A stretch of 64,000 nucleotides of DNA from positions 9,082 to 73,081 of the IMG/VR virus record IMGVR_UViG_3300005611_000013; one strand, given 5' to 3'. Shown here piece after piece: positions 30,207 to 37,776 of this stretch (its first letter is position 1; each line of letters begins with the position of its first letter). Source of the stretch: a virus. Taxonomy: Duplodnaviria > Caudoviricetes. A program made the translations under genes and the position numbers. Below the pieces are notes generated by a model that saw only the letters and a program-made list of their open reading frames with translations, was not told the origin of the DNA and did not search any database.

Positions 30207-30436
30207 TTTCTCGTCTCCGTTGGTGATGCTCTCATTCTACAAAGTATATCGGCAACGTCAAGCGGTATTCTTGAGAAAAAAAAAGATTTTTATGGCACAC
30301 GGTTTGCACGGGCAAATATCATGCCAAAGCTGCGGCACAGAAAATGCCTAGAGAAGTGACGTAAGTCGTTGGTATGACTAGACTTACGGCTTTGCCGCCC
30401 CGCCCCCCGAGTCGTAAGTCCTTTGATTGCAAGGGT

Positions 30437-30847
30437 TTACGTCACCAAGCAATCTTGATCAATGTAGCACCTATGCCCACTAGTTATAATAGTGTCCACA
30501 TGTCTACCATTCCAGTTTTCTTCTGGAAAACCCTCCAAACGCCACGCAGTATCAACTATGGGGTTAAAGTATAAGCGAGGATACTCGTCAGTATTTGCAG
30601 GACTAAAAACACTAAGATCACTACAAAACACATTGCGACACTGAACCCATCCACAAACGTCTTTAACTCCTGCGGCGTATACTTTTCTCGCTTTTGATTC
30701 ATTGCACACTAACTCACAATCTACCATAGTAAGTTGATATTTTGTTGGGTCAACATAAGATGGGGCACACTGCCTATCTTTCCCATCACGAATCTGCCAA
30801 AACTTATAGTAAGGTCCACGTTGAAGGTGAAAACGAACATTATACAT
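30437..30847 (-). CDS. Hypothetical protein
   Basis: MYNVRFHLQRGPYYKFWQIR...KDVCGWVQC; the stop lies inside a 29-bp palindrome. Confidence 0.6.
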   Translation of the reverse strand: MYNVRFHLQRGPYYKFWQIRDGKDRQCAPSYVDPTKYQLTMVDCELVCNESKARKVYAAGVKDVCGWVQCRNVFCSDLSVFSPANTDEYPRLYFNPIVDTAWRLEGFPEENWNGRHVDTIITSGHRCYIDQDCLVT

Positions 30848-31065
30848 TTAGTTAACCTCTTCGTAATCGTAATCTTCGTCGTAATCATCGCCCACGTAGC
30901 AGTCTAGTTCATCATCATACCACCACATCTCAGATATGTCAAGATCATCTTCATCCATTTTCATCACCATAAAAAGAGTAAAGGAAACAAAGAAACATAA
31001 TACTTAGTATGAGTTCAAACATTGTATATTCCTATTATACACAGAAAAACGATACTTGTCAATAG

Positions 31066-31138
31066 TAGGGGCGGTGGGACTCGAACCCACGATTTACGGT
31101 TTAAAAGACCGTTGCTTTAGCCACTAAGCTACACCCCC
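31066..31138 (-). tRNA. tRNA-Lys(TTT)
   Basis: GGGGGTG...ACGGT-CT-TTT-AA-ACCGT...GTGGG TTCGAGT CCCAC CGCCCCT A. Confidence 0.92.
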
Positions 31139-31175
31139 ATATTATCATTATACGACACTTGCGAATCCTGTCAAG

Positions 31176-31259
31176 TCCCAGATGGAGGAATTGAACCACT
31201 TGACGCCACCCTACATAATATGTCAGTTGATTTACAGTCAACCGTAGGGATCATCTGGG
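31176..31259 (-). ncRNA. Non-canonical tRNA-Tyr(GTA)-like RNA lacking a D-arm
   Basis: CCCAGATG/CATCTGGG-A acceptor, GTTGA-CT-GTA-AA-TCAAC anticodon arm, TTCAATT T-loop; only 9-10 nt where the D-arm should be. Confidence 0.65.
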
Positions 31260-34795: not shown

Positions 34796-35045
34796 TTTTC
34801 TTTCCTTTTCCTTTTCCTTTTCCTGATTCTACCAAAGTTTTTTTTGCTTGTCAACACTGAAAACTTGTTCAGTAGTTGTCGGGAAGGGTGATCCAAAACA
34901 GGAAGGCCAACCCCGAGAGAATGATGATTGTGATGATGTTTTCCATGCTAGAATATAGTGCGAATGCCGTGCCAAACCCTGAAAAATATTTTTGTGCTTT
35001 TTTCCCGTGTTTTACGCACATTTTTTTTCGTGCCTATTTTTTAGG

Positions 35046-35126
35046 CGTAGCATTTTGCAACAGTGGTGTAGCATTTTGCGTCACTGTTTTCCCGAGTGAA
35101 ATCGCAAAGTGTAGCATTTTGCAACA
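35046..35126. promoter_or_regulatory. Three phased TGTAGCA-TTT-TGCAACA palindromes (enhancer/UAS-like)
   Basis: Starts 35046, 35067, 35110 (21 and 43 bp apart), between divergent sigma54-like sites at 34974(-) and 35182(+). Confidence 0.7.
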
Positions 35127-35386
35127 CCCCCCACTGGTGGTAACGCTTTTGGGCTGCTCACAGATTAGGCAGTGCGTTTTTTGGCACGGAAGTTGCTGTA
35201 GTGTGCAAATATCATGCCAAACGCTATCCGTCCGGTTTGGGTGAGACATGGCACGGCGTTTGCCATGGCAAGTGACGTAAGTCCTTATATATCAACGACT
35301 TACGACTCGGGCGGCGGGGCTTCAGCGACGTAAGTCCTTTATTCCCAAGGGTTTACGTCACCGCCCGCTAGCCACTGTACATACGT

Positions 35387-37129
35387 TCAGGTATCCATCT
35401 GTTCAGCGTATGCCTCATCCATCATCATCATCTCTAGTGTACGCCTGTTCAGTTCTTCCATGTGTTCAGCATGTTCAGCCGATTCAGTGTACAGACGTTC
35501 ATCTTCACACATTCCGGGGTAGTAGGTGTCCATGTGTATAGTGCTCCTTTGTTCAGTTGGAGGATTCGGGATACCAGTGGAGACGAAGTTGGTTCGCACA
35601 GTTTGCAATCAAGTTGCGATGAAACTGGCGGTCATACTCATCAAGATCCCAACGTTCTAGGCAGATCTGGCTCTGCTTGATGGCAGAGATGAGATCCTGC
35701 ACTTCATAGTCAAGATCTGAAAATCGGAATCCGGGGGTTTGTGCAACGCTCATTTTTCTTTCCTTTTCCTTTGTGATGCTCTGATTCTACCAGAGATTTT
35801 CTTGCTCGTCAACACTGAACATGTGTTCAGTCAAGGTACTCTAGGCCAGTAATCTTGTCTTCGTGAAACGTCTTCGTCTCACCGCTGGTCAACAGTACGG
35901 TGATGCAGTAAACGTTTTTCAGTGAACGAAACCGGCTCACCACTTCACCGTCGCGGGCCTTGCCATTGTAGAAAAAGCGGATTCTTGGGTTTTTCATGTC
36001 TTTCATCTCCTTGGGTATGTCCTGATTCTACCAAATGTTTTTCGGGCTGTCAACACTGAACAGGTGTTCAGATCAGATCGTTCACCAGTTCGTTGCCATT
36101 CTGGTCAACGATCCTGAACTCTGTAGCGTGGTCGCTACCTTCCCAATCGCCACGGACAATGTTTTCCAGCATGGCGGCATTGCTGTGAGTGGTGTACCCA
36201 ATCACTTCGCCATAGATGTCATAGATACGGGCGATGAACAGAGGTGTAGTTGTGAAGTTCATTTTCTTTTCCTTTTCTTTCTTTTCCTTACTTCTTATAT
36301 CGGCATTCTACCAAAGATTCTTGAATCCGCAATACTGAACAAATGTTTTTTTGTGTCAAGATTTCTTGACAAAGATCGCAGCAAGATTGCGGTCGTTTGG
36401 CACGCAGTGTGCTATTGCAAATATCGTGCCAAACTTTTTGGCATGGAAAATGCGTCCCGAAGTGACGTAAGTCCTTTCATATCAACGACTTACGACTCGG
36501 GCGGCGGGGCCGCGATGACGTAAGTCCTTTATTCCCAAGGGTTTACGTCTCACGGTGGCGAACGCGGTGTACATGCGTCTACCTAGTGTACAGTTGTGAG
36601 TACTGAACAGATGTCTACCTGTACATGCGAATCCCCCTCATTAGAGAGAGGATTCTAGAAGGTGATGGTCAACCTGATTCTCATAGAAGTTGCGATACTC
36701 TCCACCTTCAAGGCGAACGCAAATCAAGGCACCCCTCTGGTAGAGATCCTCTGAACGATCCTCGCGGATGCTCATGATCTCGCCAGTGTACCGGTTTCCA
36801 CTCTTGGAAACCCATTCCACACTGTCACCGATCTTGTAGCGGTTTGAAGCGTTGACGTTGATGAAGTTTTTCATTTTTCTTTCCTTTGGTTTCTTTCTTC
36901 TTCTTCTATTCTACACTATCGGCTTTTGGGTGTCAACCCCTTGAATGGATTTTTTTCAGCAGGCCAACGCTCCTGCTTGGCGTAGGATGGACATGCTGTA
37001 CATGTTTTCATCACCATCCCACTTTTCCCAAGCCGCTGTTTCGGCTTCTTCCTTTGTCTGGAATGGACCAATGTAGTCCAGTTCGCATTCCCAAGCATCC
37101 ATCACGAGAGCGTAGTAGTTGTAGATCAT
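35387..37129 (-). CDS. Small early-type ORFs
   Basis: 35387-35608, 35553-35753, 35827-36006 (manual, MKDMKNPRIRFFY, SH3-like), 36068-36262, 36641-36874, 36956-37129 (manual, MIYNYYALV). Confidence 0.55.
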
Positions 37130-37776
37130 TTTCTGTTTCCTTTTCTTCTTTCTTTCCTTTTCTCTATTCTAGACTATCGGCAATCCGCTGTCAACCCCTT
37201 GAGGATTTTTTTTTCGGATTTTTTTTGCCTCTCGTCTTTCCCTCTCAACTATGCCACCATTATACCAAACGATCCAGATTTGTCAATACTGTACAAATGT
37301 TTTTTTGGGATTTTTTTTTGTGTGCAAATATCATGCCAAAAATCATTGGCACGGCAAATGCGTCTGAAAGTGACGTAAGTTGTTGGTATCAAAGGACTTA
37401 CGACGCTGGCGGCGGGATGGCAGATACGTAAGTCTAGGCATATCAACCACTTACGACTCATGGTAAGATGGGTGGGGTGGGGGTTTTATCTTCAAAAGTG
37501 AACTTGGGTAAAATGGCGAAAAAGCCCGGGGTGGTTCAAACAAAATAACCCCAATCAAATTAATATGTCTTACCCGATCTCTTCAGATAGACCCTAAGAG
37601 TTGCTAAATATTACCGCAATGTGTATAATATCACTAGGAGGAAACAACTATGAAACAGAAGAAACAAATAGACTGTCAATTGAATTGCAAAGCGACCGCA
37701 TCTTTGTCGTTAGAAGTATTAAACGATTTAAATCAAGAAGATCGCCCCATTGCATCCATAATTAACGACGAACGAA

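What the first reader, a model, noticed from the sequence alone, without database searches (positions are those of the whole stretch)
30293..37357. Head-to-head and back-to-back sigma54 (-24/-12) site clusters
Seen: at five loci a minus-strand TGGCA(T/C)GA(T/G)ATTTGC(A/C) site lies 34-36 bp (57 in one case) from the first 29-bp palindrome. In four loci it is faced by a plus-strand site whose -12 ends only 2-6 bp away (30293, 33608, 35182, 36398). Each locus also has a further plus-strand site behind it (33649, 35249, 36439, 37347; weak at 30333). Established: TGGCAC-N5-TTGCW is the RpoN consensus, and RpoN-RNAP binds stably without initiating unless a bEBP activates it. Inference: sterically clashing sites would trap sigma54 holoenzyme or act as roadblocks. 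sigma54 use by lytic phages is, to my knowledge, rarely reported.
Basis: partly seen in the sequence, partly recalled or inferred. Interest (0 to 1): 0.82.

Follow-up and report, generated by a model that had tools for sequence, protein, structure and literature searches.

The report
Paired sigma-54 sites between phage cassettes
An uncultured aquatic phage of about 150 kb and many relatives put tightly overlapping, oppositely oriented copies of the bacterial sigma-54 promoter motif at the borders of their early-gene cassettes, in fixed register with ordinary early promoters. This points to a docking or boundary device for an idle form of host RNA polymerase rather than a simple promoter.

Summary

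The sites match the extended sigma-54 consensus, and only the ordered GG-N10-GC form is enriched. Three complete relatives carry the same cluster at the same place. None of them encodes sigma-54 or an activator detectable with Pfam models.

Across 2.9 Mb of related phage DNA:
- 50 of 63 non-redundant head-to-head pairs have a gap of 1-4 nt.
- An unrelated 353-kb phage carries such pairs too.

The sites do not behave like gene promoters:
- Their orientation relative to genes is mixed.
- Orientation differs among relatives upstream of one orthologous gene and at one orthologous locus.
- They sit at sharply preferred distances from sigma-70-type early promoters (about 32 nt divergent, 36 nt co-oriented).
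- They lie 11-12 nt from a 29-bp palindrome.
- One whole module (30285-30431) lies between cassettes that a relative, G214, carries without it. Next to the DUF7227 cassette G214 has terminator-like hairpins there.

Best reading (0.40): host sigma-54 polymerase docking sites that gate or insulate cassette boundaries.

The host is unknown and no binding or transcript data exist. This scan has noted sigma-54-type sites, and this double palindrome, on other phage DNA before.

The parts
30293..30348 (.). Locus 1 cluster. Plus site 30293-30308 (0 mismatches), minus site 30311-30326, weak plus site 30333-30348 (3 mismatches).
   Evidence: The plus site lies about 30 nt (31 by the coordinates) upstream of the -35 of the sigma-70-type promoter 30261-30234. 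Homology with G214 ends at 30284, just outside the cluster.
30360..30441 (.). Locus 1 pair of 29-bp palindromes (30360-30388 and 30413-30441), 53-bp pitch.
   Evidence: The next G214 homology block starts at 30432.
33608..33664 (.). Locus 2 cluster. Plus 33608-33623, minus 33626-33641, plus 33649-33664.
   Evidence: Gaps are 2 nt (head-to-head) and 7 nt (back-to-back).
33676..33704 (.). Locus 2 29-bp palindrome, 11 nt after the plus site.
34959..34974 (-). Leftward sigma-54-type site 12 nt before the ATG of a 26-codon hydrophobic ORF.
   Evidence: Conserved in G001.
35046..35126 (.). Three phased TGT-N11-ACA palindromes between the leftward site (34974) and the rightward site (35182). Enhancer-like.
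   Evidence: Strongly conserved in G001 at 9.70-9.78 kb. Lead from earlier notes of this scan.
35182..35264 (.). Locus 3 cluster. Plus 35182-35197, minus 35204-35219, plus 35249-35264.
   Evidence: The orthologous place in G001 holds one plus-oriented site of the type that is minus-oriented here.
35276..35357 (.). Locus 3 palindrome pair (35276-35304 and 35329-35357).
36398..36454 (.). Locus 4 cluster. Plus 36398-36413, minus 36416-36431, plus 36439-36454.
36466..36547 (.). Locus 4 palindrome pair (36466-36494 and 36519-36547).
37323..37362 (.). Locus 5 cluster at the divergence point. Minus 37323-37338 and plus 37347-37362, with no facing plus site.
   Evidence: The minus site is 36 nt upstream of the consensus sigma-70-type promoter 37286-37259. 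The plus site points toward the rightward operon that starts at 37650.
37374..37455 (.). Locus 5 palindrome pair (37374-37402 and 37427-37455).
38517..39044 (+). Phage sigma-70-family sigma factor. Context only, not the reader of the motif.
   Evidence: PF04542, E=7.6e-6. The spacing of the two boxes does not fit a -35/-10 reader (inference).

Best explanation
The elements are binding sites for host sigma-54 RNA polymerase, which binds DNA stably without starting. They are built into small movable control modules that sit between early-gene cassettes.

A module holds one to three overlapping sites in both orientations. It usually lies next to a pair of hairpin-forming palindromes at the end of the previous cassette, and at a set distance upstream of the sigma-70-type promoter of the next cassette.

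Because the sites overlap, only one polymerase can sit in a cluster at a time, facing either way. I propose that the docked, idle polymerase acts through its presence. It would separate neighbouring transcription units and modulate the adjacent early promoter by occlusion or head-on collision. It would fire only if a host activator is available.

Shown: motif identity, spacing rules, mixed orientation, modular gain and loss. Inferred: that sigma-54 polymerase binds, and every functional effect.
For: 1. Extended sigma-54 consensus and strict GG-N10-GC spacing.
2. The clusters lie at one syntenic early region in four related genomes.
3. No sigma-54 or activator gene above cut-off in complete relatives G001, G002 and G004.
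4. The same motif and head-to-head pairs occur in an unrelated 353-kb phage, G213. It lacks this group's sigma factor, 263-aa protein and palindrome, which favours a host reader.
5. Spacing falls into discrete classes: head-to-head 1-4 nt in 50 of 63 pairs, back-to-back 7-9 or 15-18 nt, tandem 10-12 or 19-22 nt.
6. Orientation is not tied to genes. The site-plus-palindrome unit points with the genes ahead in 24 cases and against them in 17. Upstream of one orthologous gene the site is found in either orientation or is absent. It also flips between G000 and G001 at one orthologous locus.
7. The distance to the -35 of sigma-70-type promoters is sharply peaked: divergent 31-33 nt (40 of 118), co-oriented 35-37 nt (23 of 71), with minor peaks roughly one helical turn apart.
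8. The module 30285-30431 lies between two homology blocks shared with G214. Upstream of the DUF7227 cassette, G214 has GC hairpins with a T run instead.
9. In G215, pairs of GC-rich hairpins stand next to the reversed sites where this phage has the 29-bp palindromes.
10. Sigma-54 polymerase is known to repress sigma-70 promoters by binding competition (PMC4551910).
Against: - The host is unknown, so presence of rpoN is untested.
- In E. coli, intragenic sigma-54 sites did not reduce expression of the genes that contain them. The authors took this to rule out roadblock repression (PMC4591121).
- The peaked spacings could partly reflect common descent of duplicated cassettes rather than function.
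- Locus 3 looks like a classical divergent enhancer-dependent promoter pair, which suggests that at least some sites fire.
- A docking site that represses phage early promoters would need a benefit to the phage that I cannot name with evidence.
Confidence: 0.4

Rival explanations
1. The sites are ordinary enhancer-dependent sigma-54 promoters that fire in both directions. The co-oriented site adds a second, activator-controlled promoter for the next cassette. The opposed sites make antisense RNA into the previous cassette. That RNA silences early genes by collision or pairing, or, at locus 5, reads into the rightward operon with the phage sigma factor.
For: - Perfect consensus sites.
- In this window the palindrome pair is centred near -75 and -128 of the co-oriented site (near -96 and -149 at locus 3), which are typical enhancer distances (coordinates).
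- Locus 3 has three phased TGT-N11-ACA palindromes between divergent sites, conserved in G001.
- In G215, ten anti-oriented sites form regular divergent pairs with early promoters.
- Antisense and convergent effects of sigma-54 promoters are discussed for E. coli (PMC4591121, PMC4551910).
Against: - No activator gene in three complete relatives.
- Most sites have no recognisable enhancer. G215 has no 29-bp palindromes at all in the region scanned.
- Orientation flips at orthologous places.
- Arrays such as four overlapping pairs in 330 bp of G213, or tandem sites 26 nt apart, cannot all be productive promoters.
- In G215 the predicted start would fall inside the first hairpin arm.
Confidence: 0.3
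2. The motif is read by another DNA-binding protein, phage-encoded or host, and not by sigma-54. That protein happens to prefer the same two boxes and acts as an upstream regulator of the early sigma-70-type promoters.
For: - The fixed, roughly helically phased distances to the -35 element resemble those of upstream activators.
- Most motif-bearing contigs belong to one broad phage group. It shares a sigma factor and a highly conserved 263-aa helix-turn-helix protein: 72 and 67 of 229 loci respectively, and more than 1,477 clusters.
- The host, and therefore rpoN, is unknown.
Against: - The match to sigma-54 extends to flanking positions, and only one order and one spacing are enriched.
- An unrelated phage without these proteins has the motif and the pairs.
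- The phage sigma factor cannot read two boxes only 6 nt apart as -35/-10 (inference from sigma-70-family geometry).
- The 263-aa protein gives only weak small-terminase-like fold matches.
Confidence: 0.15
3. The clusters are decoys. As the phage genome replicates, hundreds of copies of 15 strong sites soak up host sigma-54 and shut down sigma-54-dependent stress or defence responses.
For: - High-affinity consensus sites packed at maximal density, including non-coding arrays.
- Sigma-54 binds without initiating (PMC4591121, which also mentions decoy roles for non-canonical sites).
Against: - A decoy needs no fixed register with promoters or palindromes, yet both are seen.
- The sites are confined to one region and to cassette borders.
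- They are gained and lost between close relatives.
Confidence: 0.07
4. The modules are mainly recombination substrates, that is repeated cassette ends that promote shuffling. The sigma-54-like boxes have no transcriptional role.
For: - Cassettes that are 93-98% identical are shared between phages whose core genes are 68-74% identical. The breakpoints lie at module edges.
- The PeSL precedent (PMC2839356).
Against: - Recombination alone does not explain conservation of GG and GC, the strict spacing, or the match to sigma-54.
- The boxes also occur without the palindromes.
Confidence: 0.08

Closest known systems
Bacterial sigma-54 (RpoN) -24/-12 enhancer-dependent promoters, for example glnAp2, pspA, nifH
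   Same: Same two boxes, the same invariant GG-N10-GC spacing and the same extended consensus. One locus has phased upstream palindromes between divergent sites.
   Different: - The sites overlap head-to-head or back-to-back.
- Orientation is not tied to a downstream gene.
- Most have no evident enhancer.
- No activator is encoded.
- They sit in a lytic-type phage early region beside strong sigma-70-type promoters.
Non-initiating and repressive sigma-54 polymerase binding in E. coli (PMC4591121; PMC4551910; the glnAp1/glnAp2 case is recalled from memory)
   Same: Sigma-54 polymerase bound in an inactive state at sites that are not gene promoters. Competition with sigma-70 promoters is documented.
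   Different: - The E. coli sites are single and mostly inside genes.
- No roadblock effect was found there.
- The phage sites are paired, intergenic, and in register with promoters and hairpins.
PeSL (promoter-early stem-loop) cassettes of T4-type phages (PMC2839356)
   Same: Small repeated regulatory cassettes of a strong early sigma-70-type promoter plus stem-loops between small non-essential genes. Shuffling breakpoints lie at the cassettes.
   Different: - PeSL stem-loops are tested terminators and carry no sigma-54 boxes.
- Here the stem-loops lack T runs and are joined to sigma-54-type sites at 11-12 nt.
Face-to-face promoters of temperate phages such as 186 pR/pL (recalled from memory, not checked here)
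   Same: Opposed promoters whose polymerases interfere with each other.
   Different: Those are sigma-70 promoters tens of bp apart that both fire. Here the two sites overlap so closely that their start points would lie inside each other's core.

Membership tests
Sigma-54 (-24/-12) promoter | GG and GC doublets exactly 10 bp apart within TGGCAC-N5-TTGCW | tested here: met
   The ordered form at spacer 6 occurs 522 times against 6-62 for other orders or spacers.
Sigma-54 (-24/-12) promoter | Host encodes sigma-54 (rpoN) | not testable with these tools
   The host was not identified. Gmd homologues are about 50% identical across many phyla. tmRNA BLAST hit only the generic tRNA-like end. No cultured relatives were found.
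Sigma-54 (-24/-12) promoter | An AAA+ enhancer-binding activator and its upstream binding sites | tested here: inconclusive
   PF00158 gave no convincing match in G000, G001, G002 or G004; G002 has one weak stretch (E=0.007, 12.6 bits) that reaches the cut-off only when summed with its neighbours. Locus 3 has three TGT-N11-ACA palindromes. The palindrome pairs lie at enhancer-like distances in this window. Many sites in relatives have neither.
Sigma-54 (-24/-12) promoter | Site co-oriented with, and upstream of, the gene it drives | tested here: not met
   - In the window, 6 sites are co-oriented and 8-9 are opposed.
- The composite unit points with the genes in 24 cases and against them in 17.
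- Either orientation occurs upstream of one orthologous gene.
- In G215, 10 sites oppose the genes.
Sigma-54 (-24/-12) promoter | Sigma-54-dependent transcription start 11-13 nt after the GC | not testable with these tools
PeSL-type mobile regulatory cassette | Strong early sigma-70-type promoter joined to stem-loops between small genes | tested here: met
   46 promoter-like sites against 17.9 expected, about 22 of them with 10-12 of 12 matches to consensus, on the minus strand. Palindrome pairs lie beside them.
PeSL-type mobile regulatory cassette | Recombination breakpoints between relatives fall at the cassettes | tested here: met
   G214 homology ends at 30284 and resumes at 30432. Cassettes are 93-98% identical against 68-74% for the terminase region.
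PeSL-type mobile regulatory cassette | The stem-loop works as a transcription terminator | tested here: inconclusive
   Terminator-like sites in the region are not above chance (11 against 8.4), and the palindromes have no T run. The place-equivalent sequence in G214 does have GC hairpins with a T run.

The most novel reading that the evidence does not exclude
A large, abundant group of aquatic phages uses the idle closed complex of host sigma-54 RNA polymerase as a structural part of its genome. The overlapping two-way docking site, set in register with hairpins and early promoters, would serve as a protein-made boundary or terminator substitute between mobile gene cassettes.
Probability: 0.2. 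Interest if true: 0.8.

Novelty: new variant of a known kind. Interest (0 to 1): 0.62.

Why it matters
Sigma-54 is the one bacterial sigma factor that holds RNA polymerase on DNA without starting. I found no paper that describes its use by virulent phages (searches; not exhaustive).

The motif occurs here under rules that do not fit a promoter: overlapping pairs with a 1-4 nt gap, free orientation, and fixed register with sigma-70-type promoters and hairpins. The phage group that carries it is very common in water samples. One of its proteins alone has more than 1,477 sequence clusters, some from Tara samples.

If sigma-54 polymerase really docks there, this would be a new way for phages to organise early transcription and to separate mobile gene cassettes. 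It would also give a natural test bed for what non-initiating sigma-54 sites do, a question left open for E. coli (PMC4591121).

Tried and rejected
1. Transcript evidence.

2. Host identification failed by three routes.
   - GDP-mannose dehydratase homologues are about 50% identical across many phyla.
   - tmRNA BLAST in five genomes and in 201 Bacteroidota genomes hit only the generic 3' end.
   - The cultured-phage collection gave no DNA match and no match to the 263-aa protein. The terminase matched at only about 25% identity.
   - The tmRNA tag begins with GE, which I recall as typical of Bacteroidota. The consensus -35/-10 promoters and purine-rich ribosome sites argue against that phylum. 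I leave the host open.

3. RNA hairpin reading of the 29-bp palindrome. In 86 non-redundant copies the arms are conserved in sequence. Mismatches are not compensated, and G-U-type pairs are no commoner on the strand the site would transcribe. In G215, however, GC-rich hairpins stand next to the reversed sites. Hairpin shape may therefore matter at the DNA level or in the gene-direction mRNA.

4. Direct-repeat response-regulator site: rejected.

5. Phage sigma factor or an ECF-type reader: rejected on box spacing (inference).

6. The 263-aa protein as the palindrome binder. It co-occurs with the palindrome, but so does the phage sigma factor, so phylogeny confounds the link. Its model shows a helix-turn-helix plus coiled coil, with only weak small-terminase matches.

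7. A sigma-54-like DNA-binding domain in the phage: only a 13-bit stretch inside a large frame, below cut-off.
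Full report
**What the window is**

The window is part of a 73-kb IMG/VR virus record estimated to be 48% complete. It carries:
- a T4-type large terminase;
- a prohead protease and an ERCC4-type nuclease;
- a tmRNA, seven tRNAs and a group I intron;
- its own sigma-70-family sigma factor at 38517-39044.

GC skew changes sign near 37.5 kb. Genes to the left run on the minus strand and genes to the right on the plus strand.

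Region 28-37.5 kb is packed with small minus-strand ORFs. About 22 minus-strand sites match the sigma-70-type promoter consensus at 10-12 of 12 positions (46 promoter-like sites in all against 17.9 expected). Terminator-like sites are not in excess (11 against 8.4). I read this as an early-gene array, by analogy only.

**Check of the observation**

All coordinates and distances in the finding hold.
- The strict minus-strand motif occurs five times, and no shuffle reached that count.
- The facing plus-strand sites end 2, 2, 6 and 2 nt from it.
- A third, plus-strand site follows at 7 nt (29 nt at locus 3). It always ends 11 nt before the first of two 29-bp palindromes, which are 53 bp apart.
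- With GG and GC fixed and at most one mismatch, the record has 14 sites against 2.4 expected.

**Are they sigma-54-type sites?**

- A matrix of 52 sites from four related genomes reads TTGGCAY(R) ... TTTGC(W). This is the extended sigma-54 consensus as I know it from the literature.
- In 2.9 Mb of related phage DNA the ordered form TGGCA-N6-TTGCW occurs 522 times. The other three orders of the two boxes occur 12-35 times. Any order at spacer 5 or 7 occurs 6-62 times.
- This rules out a direct-repeat regulator site and fits the rigid GG-N10-GC rule of sigma-54.

**Relatives**

- The terminase identified three complete relatives: G001 (161 kb, 76% identity), G002 (153 kb, 56%) and G004 (159 kb, 54%).
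- In all four genomes the sites are concentrated in one 5-8 kb region at the same place relative to the terminase. Elsewhere they occur at about chance level.
- None of the four has a convincing Sigma54_activat match; G002 has one weak stretch (E=0.007, 12.6 bits) that reaches the cut-off only when summed with its neighbours.
- None has a Sigma54_DBD match above cut-off.
- The group is very large. A 263-aa protein encoded next to the sigma factor has more than 1,477 clusters at 90% identity, some from Tara samples. It has no cultured relative.
- An unrelated 353-kb phage, G213, lacks that protein, the group's sigma factor and the palindrome. It still has 19 exact consensus sites against 0 for the control pattern. 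These include four head-to-head pairs in a 330-bp non-coding stretch.
- A host factor is therefore the more economical reader than a factor of one phage group.

**Grammar of the clusters**

After removing duplicate sequences:
- 50 of 63 head-to-head pairs within 120 nt have a gap of 1-4 nt, and they come from 34 sources;
- back-to-back pairs prefer gaps of 7-9 or 15-18 nt;
- tandem pairs prefer gaps of 10-12 or 19-22 nt.

With a 2-nt gap the two predicted start points would lie inside each other's core. The transcripts would overlap by about 20 nt (my arithmetic). Two holoenzymes could not bind together (inference from known footprints).

**Coupling to the palindrome**

- A sigma-54-type site followed after 11-12 nt by a palindrome of exactly 29 bp occurs 107 times in 71 sources.
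- In 86 non-redundant copies the arms are conserved as sequence and mismatches are not compensated.
- In G215, a 79% relative, pairs of GC-rich hairpins lie just beyond the reversed sites (3-7 nt after them), where this phage has the palindromes.
- There the predicted sigma-54 start would fall inside the first hairpin arm. The hairpins therefore look like features of the gene-direction transcript or of the DNA, not of a sigma-54 transcript.

**Relation to genes**

- A coding-strand estimator was right in 100 of 112 test windows of this record.
- By that estimator the site-plus-palindrome unit points with the genes ahead in 24 cases and against them in 17.
- Upstream of one orthologous gene (DUF7227, 80 loci) a site is present in about 25 loci, in either orientation.
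- At orthologous locus 3, G001 has a single plus-oriented site of the type that is minus-oriented in this window.
- In L120 all six sites oppose the genes. In G215 ten sites do.
- These are not the habits of gene promoters.

**Relation to sigma-70-type promoters**

Over 1,744 distinct promoter-like sites:
- the gap between the sigma-54 16-mer and the -35 hexamer peaks at 31-33 nt when the site points away (40 of 118), with minor peaks near 22, 43, 55 and 69;
- it peaks at 35-37 nt when the site is co-oriented (23 of 71), with minor peaks near 16, 26, 49, 59, 74 and 88.

In this window, locus 1 fits the divergent class (about 30 nt) and locus 5 the co-oriented class (36 nt).

Promoters with a divergent site carry a CGATA-type spacer motif in 27 of 43 cases, against 488 of 1,677 promoters without such a site. 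The sequences within each class are visibly related. Common descent therefore explains part of the sharpness.

**Modularity**

- G214 shares cassettes with this window at 93-98% identity, while its terminase region is only 68-74% identical.
- The DUF7227 cassette, with its sigma-70-type promoter, matches up to 30284. The next shared block begins at 30432.
- So the module 30285-30431 (three sites, one palindrome, the spacer and part of the second palindrome) belongs to neither neighbour.
- Upstream of the DUF7227 cassette, G214 has GC-rich hairpins ending in a T run.
- This is the logic of PeSL cassettes in T4-type phages (PMC2839356), with sigma-54 sites added.

**Mechanism**

I favour docking of host sigma-54 polymerase as a boundary or gating device (0.40). 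The main rival is active two-way promoters (0.30).

In favour of docking:
- free orientation;
- overlapping and arrayed sites;
- absence of enhancers at most sites;
- the module lying where G214 has terminator-like hairpins next to the same cassette.

Against it:
- the negative roadblock test for intragenic sites in E. coli (PMC4591121);
- locus 3, which looks like a true divergent enhancer-dependent pair.

Repression of sigma-70 promoters by sigma-54 polymerase through binding competition is documented (PMC4551910). Nothing here shows binding. The host, and so its rpoN, remains unknown.

**Earlier notes of this scan**

The scan has flagged sigma-54-type sites in at least 19 other phage genomes. 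It has also flagged the double palindrome with sigma-54-like boxes in a large group of uncultivated freshwater phages, probably the group this phage belongs to. I used those notes only as leads.

Noticed in passing
window:34869-34974 (minus strand): A sigma-54-type site (34959-34974) ends 12 nt before the ATG of a 26-codon, very hydrophobic ORF. A sigma-54 start would therefore give a leaderless or nearly leaderless message. G001 has a site at the matching place before a 44-codon ORF.
   Followed up: partly
window:35046-35126: Three phased TGT-N11-ACA palindromes lie between divergent sigma-54-type sites. They are almost unchanged in G001 (L130:9700-9775), while the flanks differ.
   Followed up: partly
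window:39031-39822 (plus strand): A 263-aa protein next to the phage sigma factor is about 80% identical across more than 1,477 clusters. The model (pLDDT 81) shows an N-terminal helix-turn-helix plus long coiled coils. Its best non-coiled-coil fold matches are weak ones to small terminases (E about 0.5).
   Followed up: partly
L433 (G215:17000-29100): In this 79% relative the reversed sigma-54-type sites sit about 31 nt upstream of early promoters. In the gene direction they are preceded by two GC-rich hairpins separated by a GC-rich spacer, in the position the 29-bp palindromes occupy in the window.
   Followed up: partly
L351:620-950 (G213:77420-77750): An unrelated 353-kb phage has a 330-bp non-coding stretch with four head-to-head sigma-54-type pairs, three of them at a period of about 88 nt, followed by a hairpin.
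   Followed up: partly
relatives, for example L201, L211, G002: Where the sigma-54-type site is co-oriented with a strong extended -10 promoter, a short palindrome of the CCTTAC-N6-GTAAGG type lies between them. It uses the same half-site letters as the 29-bp palindrome, in the reverse arrangement.
   Followed up: no
window:28000-37300 and relatives: Many early promoters carry a (G/A)CCGATA motif in the spacer between -35 and -10, resembling the -10 box of flagellar sigma-28 promoters. It is enriched at promoters that have a divergent sigma-54-type site (27 of 43 against 488 of 1,677).
   Followed up: partly
window:33300-36070: A palindrome of the CTGAAC-N4-GTTCAG type sits directly upstream of the -35 of at least six early promoters. 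TGTACA-type repeats lie beyond the palindrome pairs. Both resemble SOS-box-like operators.
   Followed up: no
window:6427-8121, 18604-18793, 10095-10448: A ThyX gene interrupted by an intein with an HNH endonuclease, a group I intron, and a phage tmRNA with the tag GETHLALAA.
   Followed up: no
L434 (G214) versus window:27000-36000: Early-gene cassettes are 93-98% identical between two phages whose terminase region is 68-74% identical, and their order is shuffled. This indicates recent horizontal exchange of single cassettes.
   Followed up: partly
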